From Eledone cirrhosa (lineage: Eukaryota), in the NCBI GenBank assembly GCA_964016885.1, contig OZ024754.1:10850001-10914000 (forward strand): DNA of 64,000 nt, in the 5' to 3' direction. The notes beneath the pieces are model-generated. The model saw only the letters and a list, made by a program, of their open reading frames with translations. It made no database searches and had not been told where the DNA came from. Below are positions 12,525 through 41,255 of the stretch, in pieces; within the stretch, counting starts at the first letter, position 1, and each line of letters opens with the position of its first letter. The position numbers were made by a program, and so were the translations under genes.

Positions 12525-12607
12525 TGGGCTGTACAGAAGAGTTCCTGAACAATTTGAAGCCTGGGGTTCGTGTGAAACGAGGGCCACACTGGAAATGGGG
12601 TAACCAG
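12525..12607 (+). CDS. Exon A, MIB/HERC2 N-half (GCTEEFLNNLKPGVRVKRGPHWKWGNQ)
   Basis: T-rich tract TTTGTAG acceptor; CAG|GTAAGA donor; phase 1 to 0; G-x-R-V-x-R-G-x-x-W-x-W-G-x-Q motif. Confidence 0.9.
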
Positions 12608-12661
12608 GTAAGAAAAACAAACTGGTTAATAAAATATATTAAATTGTTGATAATCTGTACT

Positions 12662-12727
<66 letters not shown>

Positions 12728-12926
12728 AGTACAGATTAAAAGTTTAATAAAAAAAATCTCAGCTTATACAGCCTGCCTTTCATTTTTAGAGTGAACCCTT
12801 TAGCGGCCAATAGGTTAGCCCATATGTCACCTGCAATGCTAACACCAATGGCTGCTCCCTCCTCTTGGGCATATGTGTTTCCATTAAAGGTGGCATAGCA
12901 TTGCAGGTGACATAGCTAACCTATTC

Positions 12927-13450
12927 ATGGTATGGTGGGACAATAAACTTAAACTTAAACTTAAAGAACAATTAGAAGACATCAACCTCTTAACCCTGAT
13001 AATGTACTCCCGCTACGTTGATGATATAAACATTGTAGTAAAAACACCCCCACTAGAGAACAGTCATGGAATTAGAGAAAAACACCATGGAAAGCATCAG
13101 CAAATAGCTAACTCCATCCACCAGAGTATTAGAGTTACTATAGACTACCCAAGCAAACACCCCAACCATCGATTACCTGTACTAGACACAGAGCTCTGGT
13201 TAGAAACCATTAATAACAAAAAACAAATCCTCCATTCCCATTATACCAAACCCATGACTTCCAAATATCTGATCCACCGAAAGTCAGCTGTTTTGGATCA
13301 CACCAAAATCAACACACTGATTGCGGATTTGGTACGAGTGATGAGAAACGTGTCCCGCATGTGCAACCCCAAAGAACTAGAGAGACACATACAACACTTC
13401 ATCTATCTCTGGTTACAATCAGAGAGATAAAATCAGAGTATATAGAGGAG
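12927..13450 (+). mobile_element. Penelope-like element RT/thumb fragment (intronic, degenerate) with an inverted segment upstream
   Basis: YSRYVDDI, LPVLDTELW and HYTKPMTSKYLIHRKSA motifs; inverted repeat 12810-12846 versus 12889-12923. Confidence 0.8.
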
Positions 13451-13807
13451 CCAGAACCAAATGGGAAAAAATGGGAAATAATGATACAAATGGGACCTCA
13501 TAGTTTATATATAACTGTATACAAACAGCCCTAATTGAGACCTCCTATGTATATATATATTGAAAATTCAGGACCCCAACAGCCGAGCTCCTCCTGTTTC
13601 AACAGTTGGAGTTAAGATCTAGCTGTTGAAATGGCAGGAGCTCAGTCGTCGAGGTCCCAATTTTTTCATATTACCCACTCTACTACCCCAAGTATCAAGT
13701 ACTCTGGTGAGTAATGGTCTAACTGGTTTTTACGGCACCCATTTTGATTTATATATATATTCTTTCTCACAAAAATAGATATTAACAACTAGATTTCTTT
13801 ATCCTAG

Positions 13808-13952
13808 GATGGTGGTGTTGGCAGCCTAGGAACTGTAACTGAAAGAAAAACATCAAATGGATGGGTCTCCGTGAAATGGACCAATGGACATACAAACTTA
13901 TATCGTGTTGGTTTCGAGAAAAACTGTGATTTGGATATTGTCGGTCACAATT
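13808..13952 (+). CDS. Exon B, MIB/HERC2 C-half (DGGVGSLGTVTERKTSNGWVSVKWTNGHTNLYRVGFEKNCDLDIVGHN)
   Basis: CCTAG acceptor, GTAAGT donor, phase 0 to 1; DGG-x-G-x-x-GTV...V-x-W-x-x-G-x-x-N-x-YR-x-G...DL motif. Confidence 0.92.
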
Positions 13953-14044
13953 GTAAGTCTGATTGTTTGAAACTCTCATCATTACCATCACCATCATCCT
14001 TGCCATCCAACTATACACCTACAACGCAACCATAACTCTACAGT

Positions 14045-16395: not shown

Positions 16396-16415
16396 TATCC
16401 TCTTCTCTTCAACAG

Positions 16416-16503
16416 CTACTGAATGTACAATTCTACCACAAAATGACACAATTGATACTGCACTTATTTTCCCAAGTGACACAATTTCCTTTACTTCAAA
16501 TAT
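16416..16503 (+). CDS. Exon C, CUB1 part 1 (STECTILPQNDTIDTALIFPSDTISFTSN)
   Basis: TCTTCAACAG acceptor, GTAAGT donor, phase 1 to 2. Confidence 0.8.
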
Positions 16504-16679
16504 GTAAGTAGTAATGAAGCTTTTGTTAAATATTTCAAATTATGTATGGAACTCTTACAACACTAAAATTGTTACAGTGTAACGGTAAGAATAGGGTAGT
16601 GGATCAAAGGTGAGGGGTAAAGACCCAATTCAGTCACAAATGAACATGACATTTGTACCTAAAAAGTTCCCCCTCCGAG

Positions 16680-16945
16680 GTAGAAGTCTTGGCAAGGTTG
16701 TTTATGGAAGATCAGCAGTCACTCATGCATACCACCAGCCTCCCCTCTCTATGCCACCAATGTTGTCCAAGGGAAAGGCAATGGACGATACAGCTTGGCA
16801 CCAGTGACATCACAACTCATTTCTACAGCTGAGTAAACTGGAGCAACATGAAATAAAGTGTCTTGCTCAAGGACACAACACATCACCCAGCCAGAGAATC
16901 AAACACACAACCTTATGACTACAAGCCTAATGCTCTAACCACAAG
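16680..16945 (-). mobile_element. CORE-type SINE, minus strand
   Basis: AAAGTGTCTTGCTCAAGG core reverse complement and tRNA-like head near 16945. Confidence 0.65.
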
Positions 16946-17100
16946 GGTCGTGTATAGAACCACTTTAATTCATATGTTCTATGGTGTGTTATGTAAATTT
17001 CCCTTATACTTCATCTTTCTCCTTCAGTCCCTTTTGTTCCCTATGGGGAGTGTCCTTTTCACTAGTTTATATGCTACCTGTCCAATATATTACTTAGGAC

Positions 17101-17560
17101 ATTTAGCTGGTGTTTCTAGTAGGTTGAGTGACCAGTTAGTGGTCCTTTCACTGGTCTATATTACTAATGATATTTAGCTGGTGTTTCTAGCAGGTTGAGT
17201 GACCAGTTAGTGGTTCTTTCACTGGTCTATATTACTAATGATATTTAGCTGGTGTTTCTAGCAGGTTCAGTGACCAGTTAGTGGTCCTTTCACTGGTCTA
17301 TATTACTAATGATATTTAGCTGGTGTTTCTAGCAGGTTCAGTGACCAGTTAGTGGTCCTTTCACTGGTATATATTACTAATGACATTTAGCTGGTGTTTC
17401 TAGCAGGTTGAGTGACCAGTTAGTGGCCCTTTCACTGGTCTATATTACTATATGTTGTCCAATGTATTACTAATGACATTAAGCTGGTGTTTCTAGCAGA
17501 TTCAATGACCAGTTAGTGGTCTTTTCACTGGTATATATTACTATATGTTGTCCAATGTAT
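17101..17560. repeat. Intronic minisatellite, 71-bp unit, about 6 copies
   Basis: ATTTAGCTGGTGTTTCTAG... at 17101, 17172, 17243 and onward. Confidence 0.9.
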
Positions 17561-17586
17561 TACTTAGGATATTTATTTATTTGCAG

Positions 17587-17693
17587 TTTTTATTACTGTC
17601 AAAGAAAACTGATAAGTACAAGCAGTGACCAAATTATTTCTTTCACATTATTGTGGTATAATGAAGACTCCTGTAATATAACAATTTATGAAG
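17587..17693 (+). CDS. Exon D, CUB1 part 2 (FYYCQRKLISTSSDQIISFTLLWYNEDSCNITIYE)
   Basis: TTGCAG acceptor, AAG|GTGAGT donor, phase 2 to 1. Confidence 0.85.
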
Positions 17694-18104
17694 GTGAGTA
17701 CTGTATATGTTATATATTCAACACTTACACAGCTAATGGTGTAGTTAGCAGCTAAATTGGTAAGGTATTGATATAATTCAGGGTTTCACAACCTGGGTGA
17801 TACTGCCTAACAGTGGGTAGCAACTGAACAGAAAATGAAGGGCGATTGGAAATTTTGGTGTATGTGTATGTGTTCTTCTGGTTTTATAATTTCACAAAGT
17901 TTTACCAATAGAGAGAGAGTCGGTTTCTAAGATAGACACAAGACTCTCTCATTGGAATTTACACAACATCAACTAGGTAGATATGTCTGCATGCATGCAT
18001 GCATGTGTAGATATGGATGTTGTTGTATGTGTGGATGTGTATGTTTTGAGTTGTATGTGTGCATGTGTATATGCTTTGTATCTGTACATGTGTATATGCA
18101 GTTA

Positions 18105-18530
18105 TTAGATGAAAAATGTTTGGAATGTTTTACATATTTTTACTGTTCCATTAATGGATTGTACTTGTAATTTCCTAACTAGTTGTGTTCTTTCTGTTCC
18201 TGTGAAGCCTAGCTTCTCAAGATTTGTATTGAGGCAGTTACTAACATATCCCAGTGCCTCAATAATCACAGGCATAAATCTGAAGGTGTAATCAGAGTGG
18301 AGTATCTGCAGATTTCTCATCAGTTCTGCATAAATATTCTCCTTTTCGCTAATCTTTGATATTATATTGGCATCTGCTGGGCAGCTAATTTCCTCTACTG
18401 TGCATGTTTTCTTCTCCCTGTCCCATATTATTATATCTGGTCTGTTATGCCTGCATTTTATTGGGGTTTTTACTGGAACATTCCACCAGTACTCTTTCAT
18501 ATTATGTACATGGATGTCTTCCACATTGTT
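18105..18530 (-). mobile_element. 3' end of an RLE-bearing non-LTR retrotransposon (R4/NeSL-like restriction-like endonuclease)
   Basis: HNRPDIIIWD...EISCP...EKENIY...PVIIEALG, a PD-(D/E)xK-type motif, then stop and microsatellite. Confidence 0.8.
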
Positions 18531-19369
18531 GTAGCTTTTAATGTGTTTATTATCAGGGCTATCTTTTTGTGTGTATGTATATGTGTATGTTTGTATATTT
18601 CTTGTGTATTTTTTTTCGGTTTTCTTTCTTTCCTTACAATTGTCTATCTTTCAATTTCTCCTCTCTCTCTCTCTCTCTCATTCTATATTCCGATGAATGA
18701 CTAACGTCCAAAACGTTAAGATATGTTTCCTACAATATCAAATGTTACACAAATATATGCATGCAATATCCTGTAACAACTGAGGGAATCATAGGGCAGC
18801 GTATTGACATACAGCATTTCTTGGGCATCTTTAAGCCTGGCAGAGCCCATTTCCCCTCCAACAGATCTCTTTGAGAGAATAATAGAGAGTGAGAGAATGG
18901 AAGTGAGAAAGAGATATAGAGGCAGAATCAACCCCAGTAATAGACTGGTACCTTTTTTTATCGACCTTGAATGGATGAAAGGCAAAGCTGACTTCTGCAG
19001 AATTTGAACTCAGAGAGCAGAAAGCCAAAACTTATACCACAAAGCATTCTATCCGATGTTCTAATGACTCAACTCCTTATTATATATATATATATATATA
19101 TATACATATTTATTAAAATAACAGATTAAAGTTTAAGCAAAGAATCTTAACGGGATCTTCTGAAACTCAGATCCCGTTAAGGGTGAAAGCAGCGATTCTT
19201 TGCTTAAACTTTAATCTGTTATATTAATAAATATTTGCTCTACAGTTTTTATATATATTTATATATATAATATCCTTATCGAGCCCTCTTCGGATTTTAG
19301 TCTCTTCACATTTATTATTATTATTACACACACACACACACACACACACATATATGTATATATATATAT

Positions 19370-19767
19370 GAAGGCGCATGGTTTAGTGGTTAGAGCATTG
19401 GGCTTGCAATCGAAATGTTGTGAGTTCAATACTCGGACCGGGTGATGTGTTGTTTCCTTGAGCAAGACACTTTATTTCACATTGCTCCAGTTTACTCAGC
19501 TGTAGAAATGAGATGATAGGACTAGGGTCCCTATCATTCCACTGTAAAGTGGACGTGTAGGCACCACAGAAAAAAGCACCCAGCACTCACTGTAAATGAA
19601 GTTGGTGTTAGGAAGGGCATCCAGCTGTAGAAATTAAGCCAGAATCAGTTCCCGTATGAGCAAGACAAGGTCAGGCGGCCGGACACTGCCCACAACAGGA
19701 CAACCCGTCTAACCCATGCTAGTGTGGAAGAACAGACGTAAAACGGTGATGATGATGATGATGATGA
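19370..19767 (+). mobile_element. Full-length CORE-type tRNA SINE with RTE-derived tail
   Basis: A box TGGTTTAGTGG, B box GAGTTCAATAC, core CCTTGAGCAAGACAC, tail shared with RTE 3' UTR, (GAT)n. Confidence 0.85.
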
Positions 19768-20142
19768 TATATATATGTGTGTGTGTATGTAAAAGGTAAA
19801 CAGAAATAACAACACAAACGGTACAATATATGGAAGGAATATATTAGGTTAATGCTTGAAATAGCAGGAAGGGGGTCTTAATGTTTCGGACGCTAATCCT
19901 TCATCAGAAGAAAGAATGAGAAATTAGAAAGATTGAAGGGACGGGTTGAGTCGAATTGGAAAAAAATGTTTTTAGAGAAAAATAACAGGTCCATTTATGT
20001 TGCCATCTATTATGTATGTATATATACTACATGAAAGATAGACATACTATTTCTCTCCTACAAATTCATTCACTCATAAACATATATACATGCAGATATA
20101 AAGATTGGATATATACTTTTTGTTGTTTTATCTTTTGAACAG

Positions 20143-20295
20143 GGTCAGGCAACAAAGGGGAAATATATGGAAGTATTTGTCAGAATAAAATTGGTACCTA
20201 CCACTCCAGAAATAACAGCCTTTTTGTAGAATTCTCTTTAAAAAATGAAACTGAAAGAGCAGGCTTTTTAGCCAGTTTCCACAGTGAAGAACCAG
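20143..20295 (+). CDS. Exon E, CUB1 part 3 (GSGNKGEIYGSICQNKIGTYHSRNNSLFVEFSLKNETERAGFLASFHSEEP)
   Basis: GAACAG acceptor, CAG|GTAAAT donor, phase 1 to 1; CUB C-terminal S-x-x-N-x-L-x-V-x-F...GF-x-A-x-F pattern. Confidence 0.9.
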
Positions 20296-21014: not shown

Positions 21015-21099
21015 AATGTAAAGAATCTTACAACAAATTTATAAAAGGTGGAGAAAGTGGATATATACAACCTCCATATAGTAATATTACATTAATTAC
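21015..21099 (+). CDS. Exon F, CUB2 part 1 (ECKESYNKFIKGGESGYIQPPYSNITLI)
   Basis: TTTCAG acceptor, GTAAGT donor, phase 1 to 2; C...SGYIxxP-Y motif. Confidence 0.9.
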
Positions 21100-21226
21100 G
21101 TAAGTTACAGCTATATATAATTTTATATCATTTCTATATACTGTAAAATATGGAATAATATGCTATAACTATGATTGTGGTATTTGTTATACATAACATA
21201 TGCCACATTTCATTATACCTATACCA

Positions 21227-21622
21227 GTGGATTGGCAGTATTGGTAGAGGGTCGGACGCCATGCTTTGACGCATAGAGTTACGGCCCTTGCCATTCTGAG
21301 TTCAAATCCCGCCGAGGTTAACTTTGCCTTTCATCCTTATGGGGTCGATAAAATAAAGTACCAGTAATGCACTAGGGTAATTGCTGGCCTTGTGCCAAAA
21401 GTAGAAACAATTATACCTATATACTACTCAGGGTGGGGGATTGGCAGTATCGGTAGAGAGTCGGACACCATGCTTTGCAGCATAGAGTTACGGCTTTTTA
21501 TGGTCTGAGTTCAAATCCAGCCGAGGTTAACTTTGCCTTTTATCCTTACGGGGATTGATAAAATAAAGTACCAGTAATGCACTGTGGTAATTGCTGGCCT
21601 TGTGCCAAAAGTAGAAACAATT
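21227..21622 (+). mobile_element. Two tandem Meta-type SINE copies
   Basis: Same sequence as the 5051 copies; further single copies at about 25057-25180, 33620-33820, 43868-44055 and (minus) 18905-19070. Confidence 0.8.
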
Positions 21623-21975
21623 CTATCTATATGCTACTAAAACTCTGTGATTGTGGGCTTGTCTGTAATTTAATAAAGCCAAAATGGTGCATAATGGGAA
21701 AATACTTTGAAAGTAATTTGCCTCTGAAATGGGAATACAAATGGAATAAAACAAGTTTTGTGTAAATCGGAGCACAGGTTCTAGGTACCTTCATAAATAG
21801 AGAGAGAGAGAAAGATAGAGAGAAAGAGATAGTGGTTGTGAGAGAGTAGATTGAAAATTTCATTTTACATTATATACATGTCTATATATATTTTTAAGTG
21901 AACGGTTGGTCTCGTTTATAATATCAGTTATTCTAATAGAACATTATAACTTGTCATCTTGTCTTCTTGTTACAG

Positions 21976-22076
21976 CCCATTGAAATGTCAGTGGACCCTA
22001 ACAACTGACCATAGTCATGTGTTCCAAATTAATTTGGTCAAGTTTGAAGAGTTGAAATACCTTGATATCTATGATG
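21976..22076 (+). CDS. Exon G, CUB2 part 2 (PLKCQWTLTTDHSHVFQINLVKFEELKYLDIYD)
   Basis: TTACAG acceptor, G|GTTAGT donor, phase 2 to 1; C-x-W and YLxIYDG motifs. Confidence 0.92.
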
Positions 22077-22174
22077 GTTAGTACCTCTTACATCCAGTGT
22101 GTGTGACATTTCTGTCTCTTATTGTGAAGCTTTGTCTTGTCACAAGTTGACATATTTATGACATTTTACAGCTG

Positions 22175-22930
22175 TTGACACATCTCTCTATACCAGTGTC
22201 TGATGTTGACATTGTCTGACAGTTGACATCTCTCTATACCAGTGTCTGACAGTTGACATCTCTCTATACCAGTGTCTGATGTTGACATTGTCTGACAGTT
22301 GACACCTCTCTATACCAGTGTCTGATGTTGACATTGTCTGACAGTTGACATCTCTCTATACCAGTGTCTGACAGTTGACATTGCCTGACAGTTGACATCT
22401 TTCTATACCAGTGTCTGATGTTGACATTGACTGACAGTTGACATCTATCTATACCAGTGTCTGATGTTGACATTGTCTGACAGTTGACACCTCTCTATAC
22501 CAGTGTCTGATGTTGACATTGTTTGACAGTTGACATCTCTCTATACCAGTGTCTGACAGTTGACACCGCTCTATACCAGTGTCTGATGTTGACATTGTCT
22601 GACAGTTGACATCTCTCTATACCAGTGTCTGACAGTTGACATCTCTATACCAGTGTCTGACAGTTGACATCTCTCTATACCAGTGTCTGATGTTGACATT
22701 GTCTGACAGTTGACATCTCTCTATACCAGTGTCTGACAGTTGACACCGCTCTATACCAGTGTCTGATGTTGACATTGTCTGACAGTTGACATCTCTCTAT
22801 ACCAGTGTCTGACAGTTGACACCGCTCTATACCAGTGTCTGATGTTGACATTGTCTGACAGTTGACATCTCTCTATACCAGTGTCTGACAGTTGACACAT
22901 CTCTCTATGCCAATGTCTGATGTTGATATA
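22175..22930. repeat. Compound minisatellite (about 46-bp and 30-bp variants of ACATCTCTCTATACCAGTGTCTGA[TGTTGACATTGTCTGA]CAGTTG)
   Basis: Tandem copies running up to the 22950 acceptor. Confidence 0.9.
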
Positions 22931-22950
22931 TCTCTATTTTATATTTTCAG

Positions 22951-23085
22951 GTAACACACAAATTGAACATTTGAATCGTAAAACTTTTCACTATAAAACA
23001 AAATTGCCTACATTAGATGTATTCTATAACAAACCAAGTATATACAGTTCTGGTTTTGTTATCTCTTATAAATCTATTCCTAAAG
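22951..23085 (+). CDS. Exon H, CUB2 part 3 (GNTQIEHLNRKTFHYKTKLPTLDVFYNKPSIYSSGFVISYKSIPK)
   Basis: TTTTCAG acceptor, AAG|GTACAT donor, phase 1 to 1; GF-x-I-x-Y motif. Confidence 0.88.
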
Positions 23086-23848: not shown

Positions 23849-23880
<32 letters not shown>

Positions 23881-24878: not shown

Positions 24879-24966
24879 AAAAACTATTCTGTCCAGATAT
24901 TAAGTCTAGAGATTATGGAACAAGATTTCAGTTTCCGATATCAACAGTTTTTAAAAATGATAGTAT
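24879..24966 (+). CDS. Exon I, CUB3 part 1 (EKLFCPDIKSRDYGTRFQFPISTVFKNDS)
   Basis: TTCCTAG acceptor, GTAAGT donor, phase 1 to 2. Confidence 0.8.
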
Positions 24967-25384
24967 GTAAGTAAACATTTTGTGTTTTTGTCACTTTTTA
25001 TATCATTCTAATAATTTTCAATGGTTCCATCTATTTTTATTATATTAGCAAAGATAGGGTGGTGGATTGGCAATATCGGTAGAGAGTCGGACGCCATGTT
25101 TTGCAGCATAGAGTTACGACCCTTTATGATCTGAGTTCAAATCCCGCCGAGGTTAATTTTGCCTTTCATCCTTACGGGGTAGATATATTAGCAAAGATGG
25201 AATGGTTTTGGGGAGACAAAAAGAAAGGAAAAATATATCAATTTTCTTTGGTTGCACATGATACAAACTACACCGGGAATGAGACAATGAGAAAGTCTCT
25301 ATCTGTTACTCATCTTGCTTGAAATAATACCCAATCTTCCCTCATATCTCTTACTATTGTTTTAAAATGAAGGAAAAACACAGA

Positions 25385-26460
25385 TAGTAAGGAAAGGGAA
25401 TGACCACAACCAGAATACCCCTACCCATGGGTCTGATAAATGTTGACCAACACAGTAAGGAAAAGGAACGACCACAACCAGAATACCCCTACCCATGGGT
25501 CTGATAAATGTTGACCAACACAGTAAGGAAAAGGAATGACCACAACCAGAATACCCCTACCCATGGGTCTGATAAATGTTGACCAACACAGTAAGGAAAA
25601 GGAATGACCACAACCAGAATACCCCTACCCATGGGTCTGATAAATGTTGACCAACACAGTAAGGAAAAGGAATGACCACAACCAGAATACCCCTACCCAT
25701 GGGTCTGATAAATGTTGACCAACACAGTAAGGAAAAGGAATGACTCCAACCAGAATACTCCTACCCATGGGTCTGATAAATGTTGACCAACACAGTAAGG
25801 AAAAGGAATGACCCCAACCAGAATACTCCTACCCATGGGTCTGATAAATGTTGACCAACACAGTAAGGAAAAGGAACGACCACAACCAGAATACTCCTAC
25901 CCATGGGTCTGATAAATGTTGACCAACACAGTAAGGAAAAGGAATGACCCCAACCAGAATACCCCTACCCATGGGTCTGATAAATGTTGACCAACACAGT
26001 AAGGAAAAGGAACGACCACAACCAGAATACTCCTACCCATGGGTCTGATAAATGTTGACCAACACAGTAAGGAAAAGGAATGACCCCAACCAGAATACTC
26101 CTACCCATGGGTCTGATAAATGTTGACCAACACAGTAAGGAAAAGGAATGACCACAACCAGAATACTCCTACCCATGGGTCTGATAAATGTTGACCAACA
26201 CAGTAAGGAAAAGGAATGACCACAACCAGAATACCCCTACCCATGGGTCTGATAAATGTTGACCAACACAGTAAGGAAAAGGAATGACCACAACCAGAAT
26301 ACCCCTACCCATGGGTCTGATAAATGTTGACCAACACAGTAAGGAAAAGGAATGACCACAACCAGAATACCCCTACCCATGGGTCTGATAAATGTTGACC
26401 AACACAGTAAGGAAAAGGAATGACCACAACCAGAATACACCTACCCATGGGTCTGACAAT
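25385..26460 (-). repeat. 68-bp satellite, about 16 copies, inverted relative to the 46.7-64 kb array
   Basis: Unit GTAAGGAAAAGGAATGACCACAACCAGAATACCCCTACCCATGGGTCTGATAAATGTTGACCAACACA. Confidence 0.95.
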
Positions 26461-26753
26461 GTTGATCAGGGGCTAAACAACATCAGTTAATAGAATTGGT
26501 TCTCAAAAGTGGAACAGAAACACAGTAGGTTTCTTATACTGGACTTGATATTAGAAACTTGATTGAAATAAATAATTGTCATAAATATTATAGAATAATA
26601 AACTTTATATAGCAATTTCCTTTATTAAATGTTCAGCCATTTTGTAAAAATAACGAGTATAACTTATTGTATTCTGAAAATTTGATTAAAGTCAGTAATC
26701 TGGAGATGGACGGACTCTCATAGATTAATTTGAGCATTTATTTAATTTCGAAA

Positions 26754-26897: not shown

Positions 26898-27651
26898 CAT
26901 TCTATTTTTCTATGTAAATACATGCAGTTTTTTTAAGATAATTACTTTGTGATTCATTCATTACTACTTCAGTAAGTACAGGAAGTCTATGATCTTATAA
27001 AGAAGTTACAATAATATGTAAACTTGACAGGAGTTACCATGAACTTACCTTAGAGAACACAACATAAAGCTGCATATGATTGGATAATATGAAAACATGA
27101 ATGTTAAGTCATATGATTGGATAATATGAAAACATGAATGTTAAGTCATCTGATTGGATAGTGTTGACTCATGTGATTAGAAAATGTCAAGCCAATTAAT
27201 TACATTTATCAATTTTTCATTAGCTAAATAAATAATAATTTCTTTTGATTAACCACAAGACAAAACATTGTAAGAACTGATAGTAATATCAACAGAATCA
27301 AGCCATGTTTATTAAATCTTGTCATAAAAATTGAAGTCAACTTCTGTAGGATCAAGTGTAGAATTATGATATAACCTGTGGAGCTGCCAAAAAAAGGAGT
27401 GCTGGAAGAGTGGGTGAGGTCTTGACAGAAGTGAGGGACCAGTGATATCATGTCAGGGTTCGGGTACCTATCACTACCTCTTTTTTGTCAGATAATGGCC
27501 TGGTATGGACGTGTTATGATTGTATGCGACAGAGGCTCTGTATTTCTCGGCCAGACGTAAGTCATGTGGACATACAGTCTCGATCCAAGTGGAATAGCAC
27601 GGTAGGTCCGGTTGTTTCCCACCACATAAACAAATATCTTTAATATTTCAG

Positions 27652-27773
27652 GTTAAAAAAAGCTTGTCAGTTCTTTATTCATTCGGATGAATCTACTTAT
27701 GTTGAATTAGACTTCCAACGAATTGATAACTCCTCATGTAATCCAAAGTTCCTTGAAATGAAAATCAATAATC
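27652..27773 (+). CDS. Exon J, CUB3 part 2 (LKKACQFFIHSDESTYVELDFQRIDNSSCNPKFLEMKINN)
   Basis: TTTCAG acceptor, GTAAGT donor, phase 2 to 1; C-x-F-x-I...V-x-L-x-F...C...FLE pattern. Confidence 0.85.
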
Positions 27774-28856
27774 GTAAGTTGTATTCTCTTACAAATTATA
27801 TTGATTTATTTATATGATGTATGGCACCATTACCATTATTGTCACCTTCATCAACATTATTATCATAATCGTCAACATCAATCTCATCACCATCATCATC
27901 ATCAGCAGCAATAGGAATAGTAGCATTATTCTTTCATTTTGTGTGTAGTTGAGAGAATTGTTTAAACCACTGCTGCTGTGTAAATACATCTATTATGGTC
28001 TAACAGAAAGTCATGGAGAAGATCTCACATCTCCTTTAGCGATGAAAATTTCATCAAATAAATTCCTCTAACCAAGAAATGATGATAGCTGAATAAAACT
28101 GAAATATATGAGCTAACAGTGAATGGAAACAAAAGGGCCACCTTATCCCTTTCAATATGTAATTATTGAACTGAACTAAAATAATGGATCCCTTATGACA
28201 CAAGTCTCTACTGAGGGAATCCTTGAAAGAAACAAATCTTACTGAAAATAACACTAAAGTTCAAAAATGCAGTCAGCTATGGTTGGATATGGTTTAAATT
28301 GCTTGTGAACTTGAAATAAAGGAATAATCATTATAATTATTTTAATATATATATCTTTCTATTCTGCTGTTTCATAGATTATATTTTCTTTCTCTGCTTT
28401 TCAATCTAATCTGTCAGTCAGTACATCTGACCGCCTATGTAAAATCAGAATGACAGCATTCCTCCTAAGGAAAGAAGGCTGTTGCAGCTGATGGCGCTGG
28501 CCGTTGTCAATAGAAATGCCCCTGCTATTTCGTCCGCAGGACGCTGCCAAAACACTGTTCTGACTTAGGTGTAGAGTCTCTCACCCTCTCCCCTTCCACA
28601 GTTCTTTTTTTTTTTTCACTTAATAATCCTTGCTCTGTCCCTCCTTTCCTCTTCTTTTTTTGTATGTTGCACTAAATATTAAATTCTTTATTATTTTTAT
28701 GTAATTTTATCCTAGGAATATATTTGAGTATTTTGAAATTAAATATTTGGATATAAATTTTTGTTTAATATGACAAAAAAAAAAAAAAATCTGTAAATAA
28801 ACTATTATCATATCTTGTGGGAGAGATATATCTTTCAATCATTTAACAACATGGGA

Positions 28857-31746
28857 ACTATGATGACCTCTAGTGTATCTGATACTATGATGACCTCTAG
28901 TGTTCCTGATACTATGATGACCTCTAGTGTTCCTGATACTATGATGACCTCTAGTGTATCTGATACTATGATGACCTCTAGTGTATCTGATACTATGATG
29001 ACCTCTAGTGTATCTGATACTATGATGACCTCTAGTGTTCCTGATACTATGATGACCTCTAGTGTATTTGATACTATGATGACCTCTAGTGTATCTGATA
29101 CTATGATGACCTCTAGTGTATCTGATACTATGATGACCTCTAGTGTATCTGATACTATGATGACCTCTAGTGTATCTGATACTATGATGACCTCTAGTGT
29201 ATCTGATATTATGATGACCTCTAGTGTATCTGAAACTATGATGACCTCTAGTGTATCTGATACTATGATGACCTCTAGTGTATCTGATACTATGATGACC
29301 TCTAGTGTTCCTGATACTATGATGACCTCTAGTGTATCTGATACTATGATGACCTCTAGTGTATCTGATACTATGATGACCTCTAGTGTATCTGATACTA
29401 TGATGACCTCTAGTGTATCTGATACTATGATGACCTCTAGTGTATCTGATATTATGATGACCTCTAGTGTATCTGATACTATGATGACCTCTAGTGTATC
29501 TGATACTATGATGACCTCTAGTGTATCTGAAACTATGATGACCTCTAGTGTATCTGATACTATGATGACCTCTAGTGTATCTGATACTATGATGACCTCT
29601 AGTGTATCTGATACTATGATGACCTCTAGTGTATCTGATACTATGATGACCTCTAGTGTATTTGAAACTATGATGACCTCTAGTGTATCTGATACTATGA
29701 TGACCTCTAGTGTATCTGATACTATGATGACCTCTAGTGTATCTGATACTATGATGACCTCTAGTGTATCTGATACTATGATGACCTCTAGTGTATCTGA
29801 TACTATGATGACCTCTAGTTTATCTGATACTATGATGACCTCTAGTTTATCTGATACTATGATGACCTCTAGTTTATCTGATACTATGATGACCTCTAGT
29901 GTATCTGAAACTATGATGACCTCTAGTGTATCTGAAACTATGATGACCTCTAGTTTATCTGATACTATGATGACCTCTAGTTTATTTGATACTATGATGA
30001 CCTCTAGTGTATCTGATACTATGATGACCTCTAGTTTATCTGATACTATGATGACCTCTAGTGTATCTGAAACTATGATGACCTCTAGTGTATCTGAAAC
30101 TATGATGACCTCTAGTGTATCTGATACTATGATGACCTCTAGTTTATCTGATACTATGATGACCTCTAGTTTATCTGATACTATGATGACCTCTAGTGTA
30201 TCTGATACTATGATGACCTCTAGTGTATCTGATACTATGATGACCTCTAGTGTATCTGATACTATGATGACCTCTAGTGTATCTGATACTATGATGACCT
30301 CTAGTGTATCTGATACTATGATGACCTCTAGTGTATCTGATACTATGATGACCTCTAGTGTATCTGAAACTATAATGACCTCTAGTGTATTTGATACTAT
30401 GATGATCTCTAGTGTATCTGATACTATGATGACCTCTAGTGTATCTGAAACTATGATGACCTCTAGTTTATCTGATACTATGATGACCTCTAGTGTATCT
30501 GAAACTATGATGACCTCTAGTTTATCTGAAACTATGATGACCTCTAGTGTATCTGAAACTATGATGACCTCTAGTGTATCTGAAACTATGATGACCTCTA
30601 GTGTATCTGATACTATGATGACCTCTAGTGTATCTGATACTATGATGACCTCTAGTGTATCTGATACTATGATGACCTCTAGTTTATTTGATACTATGAT
30701 GACCTCTAGTGTATCTGATACTATGATGACCTCTAGTGTATCTGATACTATGATGACCTCTAGTTTATTTGATACTATGATGACCTCTAGTGTATCTGAT
30801 ACTATGATGACTTCTAGTGTATCTGATACTATGATGACCTCTAGTGTATCTGATACTATGATGACCTCTAGTGTATCTGATACTATGATGACCTCTAGTT
30901 TATTTGATACTATGATGACCTCTAGTGTATCTGATACTATGATGACCTCTAGTGTATCTGATACTATGATGACCTCTAGTGTATCTGATACTATGATGAC
31001 CTCTAGTTTATTTGATACTATGATGACCTCTAGTGTATCTGATACTATGATGACCTCTAGTGTATCTGATACTATGATGACCTCTAGTGTATCTGATACT
31101 ATGATGACCTCTAGTTTATTTGATACTATGATGACCTCTAGTGTATCTGATACTATGATGACCTCTAGTGTATCTGATACTATGATGACCTCTAGTGTAT
31201 CTGATACTATGATGACCTCTAGTGTATCTGATACTATGATGACCTCTAGTTTATTTGATACTATGATGACCTCTAGTGTTCCTGATACTATGATGACCTC
31301 TAGTGTTCCTGATACTATGATGACCTCTAGTGTATCTGAAACTATGATGACCTCTAGTGTATTTGATACTATGATGACCTCTAGTTTATCTGATACTATG
31401 ATGACCTCTAGTGTATCTGATACTATGATGACCTCTAGTTTATCTGATACTATGATGACCTCTAGTGTATCTGATACTATGATGACCTCTAATGTATCTG
31501 AAACTATGATGACCTCTAGTTTATCTGATACTATGATGACCTCTAGTGTATCTGATACTATGATGACCTCCAGTGTATCTGATACTATGATGACCTCTAG
31601 TGTATCTGATACTATGATGACCCCTAGTGTATCTGATACTATGATGACCTCCAGTGTATCTGATACTATGATGACCTCTAGTGTATCTGATACTATGATG
31701 ACCTCTAGTGTATCTGATACTATGATGACCTCTAGTTTATCTGAAA
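28857..31746. repeat. 24-bp minisatellite (ACTATGATGACCTCTAGTGTATCTGAT-type), about 120 copies, intronic
   Basis: Indel-free tandem array; produces the 994-aa (+) and 977-aa (-) ORFs. Confidence 0.95.
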
Positions 31747-32554
31747 ATCTTTCTGGTAAATGTAACAAAATATTAGAAATATTTTCAATTTTAACTTAAT
31801 ATTTCTTTTTTAATTTTCAACTATAAATTTTTTGTTTTATGAAATGAAAGAGTGAAAAGCCATCCTGTCTGCAGGGTGCAGCACTCCTTCCCCCTTGCCC
31901 TAGGCCCAATCACCTTCCCCCATCACCCCCTCTCTTCTGCGACACCAGAGCTATTGCCCCCCCCCCCATTTCCCTTCTTTTTCTTCTTTCTTTCTCTTTG
32001 TTTTTTTCTTTTCTATATTACCCTATATGACATATGACCGTGACCTCTGGCATCACACAGTAATACGGAAGACCTGAGCCCCCACGGGTACAAGCCGAAG
32101 CTGAAGCATATAGACAATATGTCCCCATACCCTCCCACTGCAAAGTGGTTGTGGAGGTGCCACGGCAAAAAAGCACCCAGCCCACACTGTAAAGTGGACG
32201 TGTAGGCGCCACGGAAAAAAAAGCACCCAGCACTCACTGTAAATGAGGTTGGTGTTAGGAAGGGCATCCAGCAGTAGAAATCAAGCCAGAATCAGTTCCC
32301 GTATGAGCAAGACAAGGTCAGGTGACTGGACACTACCCACAACAGGACAACCTGTCTAACCCATGCTAGCGTGGAAGAACGGATGTAAAACTGTGATGAT
32401 GATGACGATGATGATGATGATGATGATTATCCTATTCTTTCTTTCCTTGTATTTCCCCCGTTTTTTGTTTTTTTTCTTACTAAATAAGGTTTGTTTCTTT
32501 TGCATTCATTTGATTAAAATCATTTTTTTATCACCAATTTTATATTATTTGTAG

Positions 32555-32686
32555 GAATTTATCCATTGGAAACTGGTGGTTCTATTCAACAATTTTCTAT
32601 GAGAGCTAAAAAGTTTCACATTGAATATTTATTGATAACTCGCTGTAGTAAATTCTCCATACTTGTTTATGTTAAAAGAGTACCAA
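32555..32686 (+). CDS. Exon K, CUB3 part 3 (RIYPLETGGSIQQFSMRAKKFHIEYLLITRCSKFSILVYVKRVP)
   Basis: TTTGTAG acceptor, GTAAGT donor, phase 1 to 1. Confidence 0.8.
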
Positions 32687-35334: not shown

Positions 35335-35425
35335 TTCCTTCCTGTTTCCGCAACTCTACTGTTGAAGTTACCAGTGGATCAACACGATTTATAAATGTCC
35401 CACAGTTGATACCATATGACAATGT
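35335..35425 (+). CDS. Exon L, CUB4 part 1 (IPSCFRNSTVEVTSGSTRFINVPQLIPYDN)
   Basis: TTTTGCAG acceptor, GTATGT donor, phase 1 to 2. Confidence 0.82.
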
Positions 35426-35664
35426 GTATGTAATATATTACTTTTTGTATCAATTCAATAATCACTAATTAAAATACTCAGTTATCATTATCCTTAGTCA
35501 AAGAACTCAATACACACAACATACCTAGAACTTTCTACATTCACTTCTATAACTCCCAATTACTAACAAATTACTAACATTCAAAGAGATTATGTCTGTT
35601 AGCAAGTGACAACATATTAAAAGAAATAAAAGATAGATTAATCTTTTCGTTTTTTATTTTCTAT

Positions 35665-36388
35665 TGTTAAGTCAGTGATGTGAGGGCAGTGTCTATAGCT
35701 TTTTTCAGGACCTCTGGGTCTAGTGAAAAGAAGGAAGTTATTTTACTGCTAAGTCAGTGATGTGAGGCCAGTGTCTATAGCTTTTTTCAGGACCTCTGGG
35801 TCTAGTGAAAAGAAGGAAGTTATTTTACTGTTAAGTCAGTGATGTGAGGCCAGTGTCTATAGCTTTTTTCAGGACATCTGGGTCTAGTGAAAAGAAGGAA
35901 GTTATTTTACTGTTAAGTCAGTGATGTGAGGCCAGTGTCTATAGCTTTTTTCAGGACATCTGGGTCTAGTGAAAAGAAGGAAGTTATTTTACTGTTAAGT
36001 CAGTGATGTGAGGCCAGTGTCTATAGCTTTTTTCAGGACCTCTGGGTCTAGTGAAAAGAAGGAAGTTATTTTACTGTTAAGTCAGTGATGTGAGGCCAGT
36101 GTCTATAGCTTTTTTCAGGACATCTGGGTCTAGTGAAAAGAAGGAAGTTATTTTACTGTTAAGTCAGTGATGTGAGGCCAGTGTCTATAGCTTTTTTCAG
36201 GACATCTGGGTCTAGTGAAAAGAAGGAAGTTATTTTACTGTTAAGTCAGTGATGTGAGGCCAGTGTCTATAGCTTTTTTCAGGACATCTGGGTCTAGTGA
36301 AAAGAAGGAAGTTATTTTACTGTTAAGTCAGTGATGTGAGGCCAATGTCCATGACCTCTGGGACTAGTGGATGGTAGGAAGTTATTTT
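35665..36388. repeat. Intronic minisatellite, 82-bp unit, about 9 copies
   Basis: TGTTAAGTCAGTGATGTGAGG... at 35665, 35747 and onward. Confidence 0.93.
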
Positions 36389-36476
36389 GATTAATTATAA
36401 CAATAACTTAAATTATACAATAACTTATACAATAACTTAAATTTTTTTAACATTTTTCTTTTTATTTGTTTCACAG

Positions 36477-36589
36477 GGGAGAATGTAAATGGACATTTAA
36501 CATCAAACCAAAGCATATTTTAAATCTTGAAATTATAACAACATACAAAAAAGCATGGCCAACATATAAGTGTTTCTCATACCTTAATG
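36477..36589 (+). CDS. Exon M, CUB4 part 2 (GECKWTFNIKPKHILNLEIITTYKKAWPTYKCFSYLN)
   Basis: TTCACAG acceptor, G|GTAAGG donor, phase 2 to 1; C-x-W...C-x-x-YL motifs. Confidence 0.88.
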
Positions 36590-37017
36590 GTAAGGACAGT
36601 CTCAGTATTATGATTCTGGATTAATATTTTTTCTCTTTAATTAGCCTTAATTGTTTCTACTTTTGGCACAAGGCCAGCAATTTTGGGGGAAGGGAAAGTC
36701 GATTGAATTGACCCCCAGTACATTACTGGTGCTTTATTTTATTTAACCTAATAATTGTTTCTACAAAGCCAGCAATTTAAAAGAGAGGTGGAAAGTTGAT
36801 TACTCCCAAAAAGGCGCCTAAGATCCAAGTGTTGTTAAATAACATTTATCAGATTATATTAACTCTGATCTTTACATATTGTATCTTGGATGTTTGTTTT
36901 GCTCTCAAAGATGTTTTAGTAAAAACCATTTTAACCTTAAAACATAAAAAGTAGAAAAATATATTTTCAAGAGTTGACAATTAATGCTAGTTAATAAATA
37001 TATTTATTCATTTTCAG

Positions 37018-37143
37018 GAACATCTTGGCAAAGGTTACAGAATAGTAAAATTTACACATCAGGGCTCACATTTCAACTGAAGTATAAAAAACAACATGAA
37101 TTCATGAAAATGTCTGAAGATATCATAATTAGCTATACTTCTG
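37018..37143 (+). CDS. Exon N, CUB4 part 3 (GTSWQRLQNSKIYTSGLTFQLKYKKQHEFMKMSEDIIISYTS)
   Basis: TTTTCAG acceptor, G|GTAAGT donor, phase 1 to 1. Confidence 0.82.
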
Positions 37144-37189
37144 GTAAGTTGGTTGGCTTCTGGTAAGTTGGTTGGCATCTGGTAAGTTG

Positions 37190-38415: not shown

Positions 38416-38462
<47 letters not shown>

Positions 38463-38468
<6 letters not shown>

Positions 38469-38760
38469 GTTTGTATTTGTAAAGCCAAAACAATGCAGGT
38501 ATGAATATAGAAAATAAATGCAAATGCAAAAGATATTGTTGACAATTAGTCTTTTACCTTAAATTTATTTAAATATCCTTAATTTTTGAGATAATATCTC
38601 TTCTTCAGAGGGAAGTAAAGTGGTTAAACCAGCGTTCTAAATAGCTTGCAGCTAAATAAATTTAAGTTAAAGACTAATTGTCAACACTATCTTTTGCGTT
38701 TGCATTTATATTCTATATCCATACCTGCATTGTTTTGGCTTTACAAATACAAACGTTTAT
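38463..38760. repeat. Fold-back inverted repeat, arms about 90 bp, next to (TA)n
   Basis: 38463-38553 is the reverse complement of 38669-38760; degenerate CTGAAGA core on the minus strand in the spacer. Confidence 0.85.
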
Positions 38761-38879
38761 ACCTTATTACACAATGCTTCAAGTGAACTATAACTTCCTC
38801 CATATATATATATATTGTAACCCATGTGCAACCACGCAGTATTCCTCTTCTCATGTTTTTTATATATATATATACGCGA

Positions 38880-39442
38880 ATGGCAAAGCATAAACAAATT
38901 GGGAGAGAGACTGAGCATAAGAATAATCAAATGCTGTGTGCAGGAGAGGTTACGTTGGTATGGAGATGTGATGCGCATGAAGGATGACAGCTGTATAAAA
39001 AGGTCCAGAGCACTAGAAGTCGATGGAAGCCACGGAGTGGGGAGACCCAAGAAGACCTGGGATGAGGTGATAAAAGCCAACCTTACCCAATTGCACCTCT
39101 CCAAGGCGATGACACAGGACCATGACCTCTGGCGTCATGCAGTAATACAGAAGACCCGACTTTCCACAGGAACGAACCGAAGCTGAAGCATATAGACAAT
39201 ATGCCCCCACCCCCTCCCACTGCAAAGTGGTTGTGGAGGTGCCACGGCAAAAAAGCACCCAGCACTCACTGTAAATGAGGTTGGTGTTAGGAAGGGCATC
39301 CAGCTGTAGAAATCCAGCCAGAATCAGTTCCCATATGAGAAAGACAAGGTCAACCGATTTGACACTGCCCACAAAAGGACAACCTGTCTAACCCATGCTA
39401 GCGTGGAAGAACAGACGTGAAACGGTGATGATGATGATGATG
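38880..39442 (+). mobile_element. RTE LINE 3' end
   Basis: RLRWYGDVMRM...GRPKKTWDEVIK...DHDLWR, 3' UTR and (GAT)n. Confidence 0.85.
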
Positions 39443-39591
39443 TGTGTGTGTGTGTGTGTTAAGTATTTCCATAGAAAAAGTAAAGGAAAGAAGAGCGCTC
39501 GGTGTATAGCACATCATCGCCATCATTGTTTAACGGCTATCTTCCACACTAGCATGGGTTTAGATGGGAATTGTCCATGTAATTAAATATA

Positions 39592-39623
<32 letters not shown>

Positions 39624-40908
39624 GATATATATATACATACAATAAAGTATGTCCATAGAATCATTTGATAAAATATATACACCATTTCCTCTCCCAATCA
39701 GTATAATCAACCACACAAAAAAACAATTAAACCAGGCTATAAGATTAAAAGACACCTATGAAGAAATAATATATATATATATAGAGAGCGGTGCCCCAGC
39801 ATGGCCTCAGCCGGATGGCTGAAACAGGTAAAAGAATAGTGGAATAAAATAACAAGGACACTTGGTTACTCCTTCATTACATTTATTGGTTGGTGACGCG
39901 CGTTTCGTCTGGGTATGTATATATATATATATACCTCCTATGGGTACAAGCTGAAGCATATAGACAATATGCACCCCCCCACCCCACCGCAAGGTGGTCG
40001 TGGAGGTGCCACGGCAAAAAAGCACCCAGCCCACACTGTAAAGTGGACGTGTAGGCGCCACGAAAAAGCACCCAGCACTCACTGTAAATGAGGTTGGTGT
40101 TAGGAAGGGCATCCAGCCGTAGAAATCAAGCCAGATCAGCTCCTGTATGAGCAAGGCATGGTCAGCCGACCAGACACTGCCCACAACAGGACAACCCGTC
40201 TAACCCATGCTAGCGTGGAAGAACGGACGTAAAACGGTGATGATGATGATGATATATATATATACACACACACAAACATTTTATTTTCTATGAACCATTG
40301 AGCAAGTTACAAATTTTTGAATTTAAATCTAATTTTAACTTAACAGCTTCAACATAATTTTGATAATGAAATATAGTCTAAACCTGACATAATTCCTTGG
40401 ATGGAAAAAAGTGAAAAGTGATCACATAGACATTTTTCAATGTCTGAATCTATGGTAGATGCCACCTAAATTGCTGCAAGTTGGGATTCAATGCAGAGTA
40501 ATGTGGTTGTAAAACAAACTTCTTAACTAAACCACCATTCCAATGTCCATTGATGATAATATAGTAAAACTGAGTGTTGTAGTATATAACTTTTTTTTTA
40601 CTATGATTGACTCTTTGTTTACATTCAGTGGTGGCATCAGTTATTAGCTGTCGAAACACTGCATCCTTTAAAACCTCCATGTTTCCTGAGATTCGCCAAC
40701 ACTACACCTAATACTCCCCCTCCATACACACGCACACATGTATATCATGATTCATATACTATTCACTTCCCTGACATTTGTACATTATTCTATGTACTAA
40801 ACATGCACCTTTGATGAGTTGTAGTGCACCTGAGCACTGTACACAATAATTTCATTATTATAAACTCAATTGTTATATATTTTTATATTGTTCATTGAAA
40901 TTTTTCAG

Positions 40909-41255
40909 TTATCCAAGAAGAAAAAACAGAAACAACAACAGAACAATCAACCAGAATAACTACCGCAAAACCATGGGGAGCGAAAATAACTACTACAAAA
41001 CCATGGGGAGTGAAAATAACTACCACAAAACCATGGGAAATATCAAATATGAGTGCGATTTCACTGTGTAAAGATAAAATAATTACTGAAACTACAATAC
41101 CACCTTGGATTTACAGTATCTTTGCATTACTCATTCTGATTTGCATTGTGTTGGCATGTGTGTGCTGGATTCTAAACAGAAGAAGGATGTATGTTAACAA
41201 CGAGAGCTTTATATATAACAAAAGTCTTCTGAAACATGAAAATATTGAAATTTGA
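40909..41255 (+). CDS. Exon O: Thr-rich stalk with 3x (R/K)ITT(A/T)KPW, TM helix WIYSIFALLILICIVLACVCWIL, NRRR stop-transfer and short tail
   Basis: TTTTTCAG acceptor in phase 1; either reads to TGA at 41253-41255 or splices at AT|GTATGT (41188). Confidence 0.88.

What the first reader, a model, noticed from the sequence alone, without database searches (positions are those of the whole stretch)
12525..41255. Receptor-like protein with an apparently extracellular MIB/HERC2 domain on four CUB domains
Seen: exons A and B splice in frame to a full MIB/HERC2 motif (PGVRVKRGPHWKWGNQDGGVGSLGTV...VSVKWTNGHTNLYRVG...DL). It continues without a stop through four CUB-like domains, a Thr-rich stalk, a TM helix and basic residues. 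Known: MIB/HERC2 is an SH3-like module of cytoplasmic ubiquitin ligases (Mind bomb, HERC2, HECTD1); in Mind bomb it helps bind Notch-ligand tails. CUB domains are extracellular. Inference: the domain was recruited to a cell-surface ectodomain, and its two flanking Cys (GCTEE and NCDL) may form a disulfide. I do not know this architecture from any characterised protein.
Basis: partly seen in the sequence, partly recalled or inferred. Interest (0 to 1): 0.85.

Follow-up and report, generated by a model that had tools for sequence, protein, structure and literature searches.

The report
Ubiquitin-ligase domain on octopus cell surface
An octopus gene joins a small binding domain known from enzymes inside the cell to four extracellular CUB domains and a membrane anchor, so the domain is predicted to sit outside the cell, where it likely grips a still unknown partner; similar moves appear to have happened separately in fish, sponges and clams.

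Summary
Fifteen GT-AG exons (12525-41255) splice in frame. Exons A and B give Pfam MIB_HERC2 positions 1-15 and 16-65 of 66. I found the missing signal peptide in two further exons: 6592-6638 and one upstream of the window. The model is 660 aa: signal peptide, MIB/HERC2, four CUB folds, Thr-rich stalk, one TM helix, 24-aa tail. A 3,153-nt contig splices A to B exactly, and its length fits the whole mRNA; the B-C junction was not read directly. Orthologues exist in three Octopus species, in Argonauta, and on intron-free unnamed contigs. MIB/HERC2 is the best-conserved part (30 of 75 positions invariant, against 2-15 of about 110 per CUB) and has two family-specific cysteines. Extracellular MIB/HERC2 is not unique: sardine, sponge and clam proteins with signal peptides carry it too. 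Ten literature searches found no description. Ligand and function are untested; the best guess is a peptide-capturing surface receptor.

The parts
6592..6638 (+). Coding exon 2: hydrophobic core of the signal peptide (phase 2 to 1). Coding exon 1, with the ATG, lies outside the window at G000:C14:10836216-10836235
   Evidence: tblastn match to the O. sinensis signal peptide; exons 1+2 give a 24-aa leader, 16 of 24 identical to P0155; junctions inferred, not read in RNA
12525..12607 (+). Exon A: Cys25, N-terminal helix, first part of MIB/HERC2 (phase 1 to 0)
   Evidence: Pfam PF06701 1-15 of 66; spliced contig enters exactly at 12525
13808..13952 (+). Exon B: rest of MIB/HERC2 with Cys90 (phase 0 to 1)
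   Evidence: Pfam PF06701 16-65, 48 bits; contig skips the 1,200-nt GT..AG intron and leaves at 13952
16416..20295 (+). CUB1: exons 16416-16503, 17587-17693, 20143-20295 (phases 1-2, 2-1, 1-1)
   Evidence: in frame; Pfam CUB weak on the third exon; 82 of 117 identical to P0155; fold match
21015..23085 (+). CUB2: exons 21015-21099, 21976-22076, 22951-23085
   Evidence: CUB fold Z 11.4, rmsd 2.2 over 99 residues to C1r CUB2
24879..32686 (+). CUB3: exons 24879-24966, 27652-27773, 32555-32686
   Evidence: CUB-like fold in the O. sinensis paralogue model
35335..37143 (+). CUB4: exons 35335-35425, 36477-36589, 37018-37143
   Evidence: Z 8.6, rmsd 2.5 over 91 residues to a chain of the NRP2 complex 7t4s
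40909..41255 (+). Last coding exon: Thr-rich stalk, TM helix, basic stop-transfer residues, 24-aa tail with invariant Tyr, Glu and Leu-Leu, stop codon
41256..42366 (+). Likely 3' UTR ending near the AATAAA at 42361
   Evidence: contig arithmetic leaves 1,074 nt of UTR; a poly(A) signal lies at 1,105 nt; inferred

Best explanation
The gene encodes a predicted type I membrane glycoprotein of octopods whose outermost domain is an intact MIB/HERC2 barrel, likely closed by a new disulfide and likely used to capture a short peptide motif on an extracellular partner. Shown: exon structure, reading frame, domain identity, A-B splicing, orthologues with the same order. Inferred: cleavage after residue 24 leaves Cys25 at the mature N-terminus, bonded to Cys90; four degenerate CUB domains, apparently without calcium sites, and an O-glycosylated stalk hold the barrel away from the membrane; with no catalytic part, the protein acts as a capture, adhesion or co-receptor, and its Tyr/Glu/Leu-Leu tail directs endocytosis or sorting. 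Likely origin: exons A-B form a phase 1-0-1 cassette inserted into the phase-1 intron between the signal-peptide exon and the CUB exons. The genome's HERC2-like gene has the same cassette and is the best candidate donor.
For: Frame and splice sites. Pfam halves. Spliced 3,153-nt contig in run X1, while contigs of X2-X4 run unspliced into the introns; its length fits 116+47+83+145+1,688+1,074 nt. Same architecture in O. sinensis, O. bimaculoides and Argonauta, and without the TM part in the O. vulgaris model. Same architecture in two unnamed Logan-only clusters whose 630-663 aa frames fill contigs of 2.2-3.5 kb. The MIB region is 43 of 75 identical to the distant P0091, against 27-29 of 106-117 for each CUB. 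All 18 positions that are at least 80% conserved among 373 other MIB domains are kept. The model superposes on HECTD1 3dkm (Z 11.3) and on MIB1 4xi6 (Z 10.1, rmsd 1.9 over 68). MIB1's MZM module binds the Jagged1/Delta N-box through a central Asn (PMC11887331, passages). 13 N-glycosylation sequons, 11 before the TM helix. Tail R637, Y640, E644, L652, L653 invariant in 7 of 7. The HERC2-like locus has phase 1, 0, 1 boundaries with the inner intron at the same codon; the MIB1-, MIB2- and HECTD1-like loci do not.
Against: No ligand, tissue or localisation data. Junctions 13952-16416 and 6638-12525 were not read directly. Run X1 is not on record as RNA. No SignalP or DeepTMHMM run; topology rests on hydropathy and homology. 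The model is of middling quality (pLDDT 60.8, pTM 0.33), and the disulfide could not be measured. In MIB1 the peptide site belongs to a two-domain MZM module, and I could not read which residues contact the peptide. The position that is Asp in 75% of other domains is His in most octopod members. Sequence does not single out HERC2 as donor: 30 of 71 identical, against 25-30 of 60-68 for the other five cytoplasmic domains, and the tree leaves the fork open. The octopod tail does not have the canonical acidic-dileucine spacing (motif recalled); the Logan members do.
Confidence: 0.55

Rival explanations
1. Same topology, but the barrel recognises microbial or mucus surfaces (glycan or cell-wall peptide), making the protein an innate-immune or mucosal pattern receptor rather than a receptor for a host peptide.
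For: Other extracellular MIB/HERC2 domains sit in a DMBT1-like SRCR protein (sardine), a mucin-like protein with 8-9 copies (Mya), a Ly6-bearing clam protein and a MAM/LDLa/SRCR sponge protein. Tandem copies on Thr-rich linkers suggest multivalent binding. Bacterial SH3b domains bind peptidoglycan (recalled).
Against: Here the domain is single and the most conserved part of the protein. The family is small: one intact gene in this assembly, two each in O. sinensis, O. bimaculoides and Argonauta. It does not look like an expanded immune family.
Confidence: 0.2
2. It is a luminal cargo or sorting receptor of the secretory or endosomal pathway, like the SH3-derived MOTH domain of TANGO1, and never acts at the cell surface.
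For: SH3-derived luminal domains of the MIA/TANGO1 family bind collagen cargo (PMC10119292, abstract). The tail is short, with conserved Tyr and Leu-Leu.
Against: No C-terminal dilysine retrieval motif and no long cytosolic coiled coil or proline-rich part (motifs recalled). A Thr-rich stalk and many sequons are typical of surface proteins.
Confidence: 0.1
3. The barrel has lost peptide binding and serves as a structural cap or dimerisation element, while the CUB domains do the ligand binding.
For: Many conserved MIB residues may be core-forming. The MOTH paper has a results section stating that canonical SH3 function is abolished in that family (heading only). CUB domains are established binding modules.
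Against: The CUBs are the divergent part (about 26% identity to P0091), CUB1-2 appear to lack the acidic calcium ligands, and one Argonauta model lacks most of CUB3. The barrel keeps 18 of 18 universal positions.
Confidence: 0.12
4. The fusion is a gene-model artefact: exons A-B belong to a separate or cytoplasmic product.
For: The B-C junction crosses a 2.4-kb minisatellite intron and was not read. One O. bimaculoides locus is annotated as two genes, and some models start without a signal peptide.
Against: Compatible phases; contiguous frames on short intron-free contigs in two unnamed clusters; the contig length in this species fits the full mRNA; the split O. bimaculoides models break inside CUB3, not after the MIB domain.
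Confidence: 0.03

Closest known systems
MIB/HERC2 domain (Pfam PF06701) of MIB1 MZM (PDB 4xi6/4xi7) and HECTD1 (3dkm, 2dk3)
   Same: Full-length Pfam match above the cut-off in all orthologues scanned; same fold, Z 10.1-11.3; universal residues kept.
   Different: Lies behind a signal peptide, as a single copy, with two added invariant cysteines; no ZZ, REP, ankyrin, RING or HECT domain.
Multi-CUB surface proteins: cubilin (CUB5-8, 3kq4), CDCP1, neuropilin/NETO, DCBLD
   Same: Tandem CUB folds. Cubilin is the top Foldseek match (E 1.6e-15) and the top CUB sequence match; CUB/CDCP1 clusters lead the Atlas list at 0.75-0.87, which are leads only. Type I topology with a short tail, as in neuropilin and NETO (recalled).
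   Different: About 12-23% identity to solved CUB chains. No EGF, LDLa, F5/8 or MAM domains. Calcium-site acids apparently absent in CUB1-2. CUB2 and CUB4 keep only the first cysteine pair. An N-terminal MIB/HERC2 domain is present.
MIA/otoraplin/TANGO1 MOTH domain (PMC10119292, abstract and outline seen)
   Same: Precedent for an SH3-type barrel moved to the luminal or extracellular side, where it binds a new partner.
   Different: Derived from canonical SH3, not MIB/HERC2; no sequence match; different host architecture.
Sardine DMBT1-like protein XP_062388284 and other signal-peptide proteins with MIB/HERC2 (Sycon XP_065179576, Mya XP_052791386, Mactra KAL4222501)
   Same: MIB/HERC2 between extracellular modules, behind a signal peptide, and before a TM helix in the sardine and sponge proteins.
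   Different: Database predictions, not characterised; several copies each, no CUB, separate branches in the tree. The sardine copies are clearly HERC2-like (42-46 of 70-71 identical).

Membership tests
MIB/HERC2 domain (PF06701) | Profile match over the whole domain above the gathering score | tested here: met
   Exon B alone scores 48 bits against 33.5, and exon A supplies positions 1-15; orthologues score 65-74 bits
MIB/HERC2 domain (PF06701) | SH3-like barrel superposing on MIB1/HECTD1 structures | tested here: met
   O. sinensis orthologue model: 3dkm Z 11.3; 4xi6 Z 10.1, rmsd 1.9 over 68; Atlas TM 0.83
MIB/HERC2 domain (PF06701) | Binds an Asn-centred short peptide, as MIB1 MZM does | not testable with these tools
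   Conserved surface kept; contact residues could not be read
Mind bomb / HERC2 / HECTD1 E3 ligases | RING or HECT catalytic domain with ZZ, ankyrin or RCC1 partners | tested here: not met
   Orthologues show only MIB_HERC2 and CUB in Pfam; the ligase genes lie at four other loci
CUB domain (PF00431) | About 110-residue beta sandwich with an N-terminal cysteine pair | tested here: met
   Whole-protein Pfam scores 29-46 bits against 21.4; fold matches for all four repeats. A profile from repeats 1-2 scored only 3 of 14 repeat-3/4 sequences above the best of 265 scored shuffles, so repeats 3-4 rest on fold and exon phase
Calcium-binding CUB subgroup (cubilin, MASP, PCPE) | Tyr-Glu-Asp-Asp calcium signature (recalled) | tested here: inconclusive
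   By eye the acidic positions of cubilin and PCPE-1 are not matched in repeats 1-2; repeats 3-4 did not align
Type I membrane protein | Cleavable signal peptide, one TM helix, basic cytoplasmic flank | tested here: met
   24-aa hydrophobic leader matching orthologues; one TM window at 3.31 followed by arginines; by hydropathy and homology, no dedicated predictor
Type I membrane protein | Demonstrated surface location of the N-terminal domain | not testable with these tools
   needs protein-level work
MOTH (MIA/TANGO1) domain | Sequence or fold closer to MIA/TANGO1 than to other SH3-like barrels | tested here: inconclusive
   No MIA-family chain among sequence hits or the rows shown; the MIB/HERC2 assignment is explicit

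The most novel reading that the evidence does not exclude
MIB/HERC2 is an unrecognised extracellular recognition module. It has been exported from cytoplasmic proteins into ectodomains at least four separate times in animals (octopods, sardine, clams, a calcareous sponge), here through HERC2's ready-made phase 1-0-1 exon cassette. This cephalopod receptor reads Asn-centred peptide motifs outside the cell with the pocket that Mind bomb uses on Notch-ligand tails.
Probability: 0.3. Interest if true: 0.8.

Novelty: new variant of a known kind. Interest (0 to 1): 0.6.

Why it matters
Few intracellular interaction domains cross into the secretory compartment; the MIA/TANGO1 SH3 derivative is the precedent. 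The papers I read treat MIB/HERC2 as a substrate-recognition part of ubiquitin ligases. Here it caps a conserved, low-copy octopod membrane protein and has gained a likely disulfide, and it recurs in unrelated ectodomains. That gives a small secreted barrel whose ligand can be screened for directly, a candidate cephalopod-restricted receptor, and a test case for how symmetric exon cassettes move domains across the membrane. It also exposes an annotation trap: the O. vulgaris orthologue is labelled 'E3 ubiquitin-protein ligase MIB2' and an O. bimaculoides fragment 'probable HERC2'.

Tried and rejected
A word-indexed search with exon B among longer proteins gave 4 candidates and none scored. No RNA holder was listed for the last exon. 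An out-of-frame ATG near 6552 gives a hydrophobic 29-codon frame ending at a phase-0 donor; it was rejected as the signal peptide because exon A needs phase 1 and the orthologue matches another frame. A scan of 6700-12450 for a bridging exon gave one candidate, apparently repeat-derived. The 1,000-codon open frame at 28797-31796 was rejected as an exon: it is a 27-nt minisatellite open on both strands; 96% of shuffled units have an open plus-strand frame; its two nearby AGs give phases 0 and 2 (the script printed the bases left in the codon); it would split CUB3; and the 3,153-nt contig has no room for it. Naming the donor gene by identity or tree failed (56 rows kept, 33 left out, 72 columns, no starred branch holds the cephalopod rows). 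No phage match with exon B. No earlier scan finding on this sequence or architecture. Literature: 0 papers for MIB_HERC2+CUB (the tool read the term as 'mibherc2'), 0 for 'MIB HERC2'+'signal peptide', 0 for six gene or protein ids. The listings (23 of 26 shown) showed no title or abstract on an extracellular copy; some searches were aimed at binding details and precedent. McMillan 2015 and Guo 2016 are not held. Subscription papers and supplements were not searched, so a mention in an octopus proteome table or the InterPro architecture list is not excluded. No complex prediction was run, since no partner is known.
Full report
Setting. The window is G000:C14:10850001-10914000 of a 3.0-Gb assembly. 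The closest named proteins are from Octopus and Argonauta, so I treat it as an octopod.

The observation. Fifteen exons from 12525 to 41255, all with AG/GT ends, join into one frame of 638 codons and a stop. Exon A matches Pfam MIB_HERC2 positions 1-15 and exon B positions 16-65 of 66. The next twelve exons fall into four triplets with the same phases (1-2, 2-1, 1-1). The last exon holds a Thr-rich stalk, one strongly hydrophobic segment (3.31 over 19 residues), arginines and a short tail. CUB identity is weak by sequence: 9 of 13 single-exon pieces had no Pfam hit, and a profile from repeats 1-2 lifted only 3 of 14 repeat-3/4 sequences above the best shuffle. Whole orthologues pass PF00431. 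The AlphaFold model of the O. sinensis orthologue (pLDDT 60.8) finds cubilin CUB5-8 first and single CUB domains at Z up to 11.4. A second model covering repeats 3-4 (pLDDT 69.8) finds CUB-bearing chains in its top rows among 48,161.

The missing signal peptide. The O. sinensis leader matches 6578-6631. A broken inverted copy of the gene's 5' part lies just right of the window, and it pointed to a shared unique stretch 14 kb left of the window. That stretch holds an ATG followed after 20 nt by a phase-2 donor. Joined to exon 2 (6592-6638, phase 2 to 1) and exon A, it gives a 24-residue leader, 16 of 24 identical to O. sinensis and of the same length, ending just before the first cysteine. The full model has 660 residues. 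These two junctions are inferred.

Splicing. No listed run is on record as RNA. Still, run X1 holds a 3,153-nt contig that enters at 12525, skips the 1,200-nt GT..AG intron and leaves at 13952, with no mismatch; contigs of X2-X4 run on into the introns. It has 163 nt before exon A and 2,762 after exon B. That fits 47 nt of exon 2, 116 of exon 1, 1,688 of remaining coding sequence and 1,074 of UTR, with AATAAA at 1,105. The letters beyond exon B were not shown, so the B-C junction in this species is supported by arithmetic and by orthologues, not read. A search of the own genome (stricter first look) showed no intron-free copy that could explain the contig.

Family. The profile search returned 185 proteins, 150 listed. 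Orthologues are O. sinensis LOC115216771 (338 of 523 aligned residues identical) and LOC115210489, O. bimaculoides LOC106877781 and LOC106875589/LOC106881348, one O. vulgaris model, and two Argonauta genes. Two unnamed Logan-only clusters, P0091 (10 members) and P0188, have the whole architecture at about 30% identity, on contigs of 2.2-3.5 kb for full-length members, which leaves no room for introns. Their taxon is unknown; another cephalopod lineage is my guess. No non-cephalopod MIB+CUB protein appeared; these searches are not exhaustive. Across 7 members, 30 of 75 MIB-region positions are invariant, against 15 of 116, 13 of 107, 2 of 115 (lowered by one model lacking most of CUB3) and 15 of 110 in the CUBs. 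Cys25 and Cys90 are invariant, while the same columns hold Cys in 0% and 2% of 373 other domains where filled. All 18 near-universal positions are kept.

How unusual is the location? Of 135 MIB-bearing representatives, 121 start with Met and 14 pass a crude signal-peptide rule that 25 of 2,620 internal windows pass. Two belong to this family. Four are named animal proteins: a sardine DMBT1-like protein (SRCR, 4 MIB, D8C, Ig, TM), a Sycon MAM/LDLa protein (4 MIB, TM), a Mya mucin-like protein (8-9 MIB) and a Mactra Ly6-bearing protein (3 MIB). Eight are from metagenome sources or were not looked up (4 looked up, all unnamed: searches cover P0010, P0012, P0017, P0053); I presume they are bacterial. 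Inside cells the domain also pairs with kinases, PARP, VWA/WWE and WD40. It occurs in Mastigamoeba, a dinoflagellate and a Spirochaetales MAG, against the older view that it is metazoan-specific (PMC2770060, passages). An orthogroup annotated Mib-herc2 is expanded in bivalves and filed under ubiquitination (PMC8382680, one table passage). Earlier scan notes report it in phages (not checked here).

Origin. The genome has four other MIB/HERC2 loci (9 matches at 5 loci). I name MIB1 and HECTD1 by likeness to the PDB chains printed; the names MIB2 and HERC2 are recalled. The HERC2-like locus has its domain on two exons with a phase-1 acceptor, a phase-0 intron at the same codon as A/B, and a phase-1 donor, read by eye from DNA. 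The other loci have no intron, or one elsewhere. A 1-0-1 cassette fits a phase-1 intron behind a signal-peptide exon without breaking the frame. Sequence does not confirm the donor: identities to the six cytoplasmic domains are 37-47% (two rows carried 1-2 intron-encoded residues, trimmed for the tree). The tree groups the cephalopod rows (SH-aLRT 80) but leaves their sister open; sardine groups with HERC2 (90), and sponge (89) and clam (91) rows form their own groups. Separate recruitments are therefore likely, shown best for sardine, and not proven on 72 columns.

Mechanism. In MIB1 the MZM module, with two such domains, binds the N-box of Jagged1 and Delta through a central asparagine (PMC11887331, passages; bioRxiv 2024.03.01.582834, passages). 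I could not read the contact residues. The barrel is the conserved part and the CUBs have drifted, apparently without calcium ligands in repeats 1-2. I therefore infer that the barrel binds the ligand, and that the CUBs and stalk act as spacer and secondary contacts. With no catalytic domain and a 24-residue tail with invariant Tyr, Glu and Leu-Leu, the protein would capture and internalise a partner, or act as an adhesion or co-receptor. I put the architecture and topology at about 0.93 and this mechanism at 0.55. Rivals are microbial or mucus recognition (0.2), a structural cap (0.12), a luminal cargo receptor of the TANGO1 kind (0.1; PMC10119292, abstract and outline) and a modelling artefact (0.03).

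Novelty. The proteins are in RefSeq and GenBank as uncharacterised or mislabelled ligases. Ten searches of the open library found no description of this architecture or of an extracellular MIB/HERC2 domain; ECOD describes the domain as a substrate-recognition module of E3 ligases (PMC11701565, passage). Subscription papers and supplements were not seen. Verdict: a real, conserved, apparently undescribed variant of the multi-CUB type I membrane protein, and one case of a wider, apparently unremarked export of this domain. Interest 0.6.

Noticed in passing
G000:C14, window-equivalent 63101-77610 (L022, L023), minus strand: Recent inverted, broken copy of this gene's 5' part: upstream region 97% alike, exon 2 and exon D identical, exon A with a stop, exon C 87.5%, no exon B or later exons found.
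   Followed up: partly
window 46705-64000: A 68-bp minisatellite of at least 254 copies, the reverse complement of the 16-copy array in this gene's intron at 25386-26465; 200 N at 54439-54638.
   Followed up: partly
window 28857-31744: Intronic 27-nt minisatellite, 107 copies, stop-free in one frame on each strand and followed by a phase-1 donor-like site at 31755; an open frame is expected by chance.
   Followed up: yes
window 2-1549: 3' end of a non-LTR retrotransposon frame (RVT_1, zf-RVT), followed by an ATT repeat.
   Followed up: partly
window 12770-13500: Very high-copy element fragment in intron A-B (depth above 100,000 in runs X2-X4) with an RT-like two-Asp motif; no Pfam hit.
   Followed up: partly
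window 7641-8203: A 563-bp fold-back palindrome around a (TA)n run, 97.5% self-complementary by blastn; foldback element or assembly artefact.
   Followed up: no
P0011 / XP_062388284 (Sardina pilchardus): DMBT1-like SRCR receptor with four HERC2-like MIB domains in pairs between SRCR repeats; 42-46 of 70-71 identical to the octopod HERC2-like domain, a likely independent recruitment.
   Followed up: partly
P0010, P0012, P0017, P0053, P0089 and others: Proteins with secretion- or lipoprotein-like N-termini and 2-6 MIB/HERC2 domains, one with a caspase-like domain; presumably bacterial.
   Followed up: partly
G000:C1637:47917-48039 (L027): Weak match to the last CUB4 exon on a 56-kb contig, possibly a fragment of a second paralogue.
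   Followed up: no
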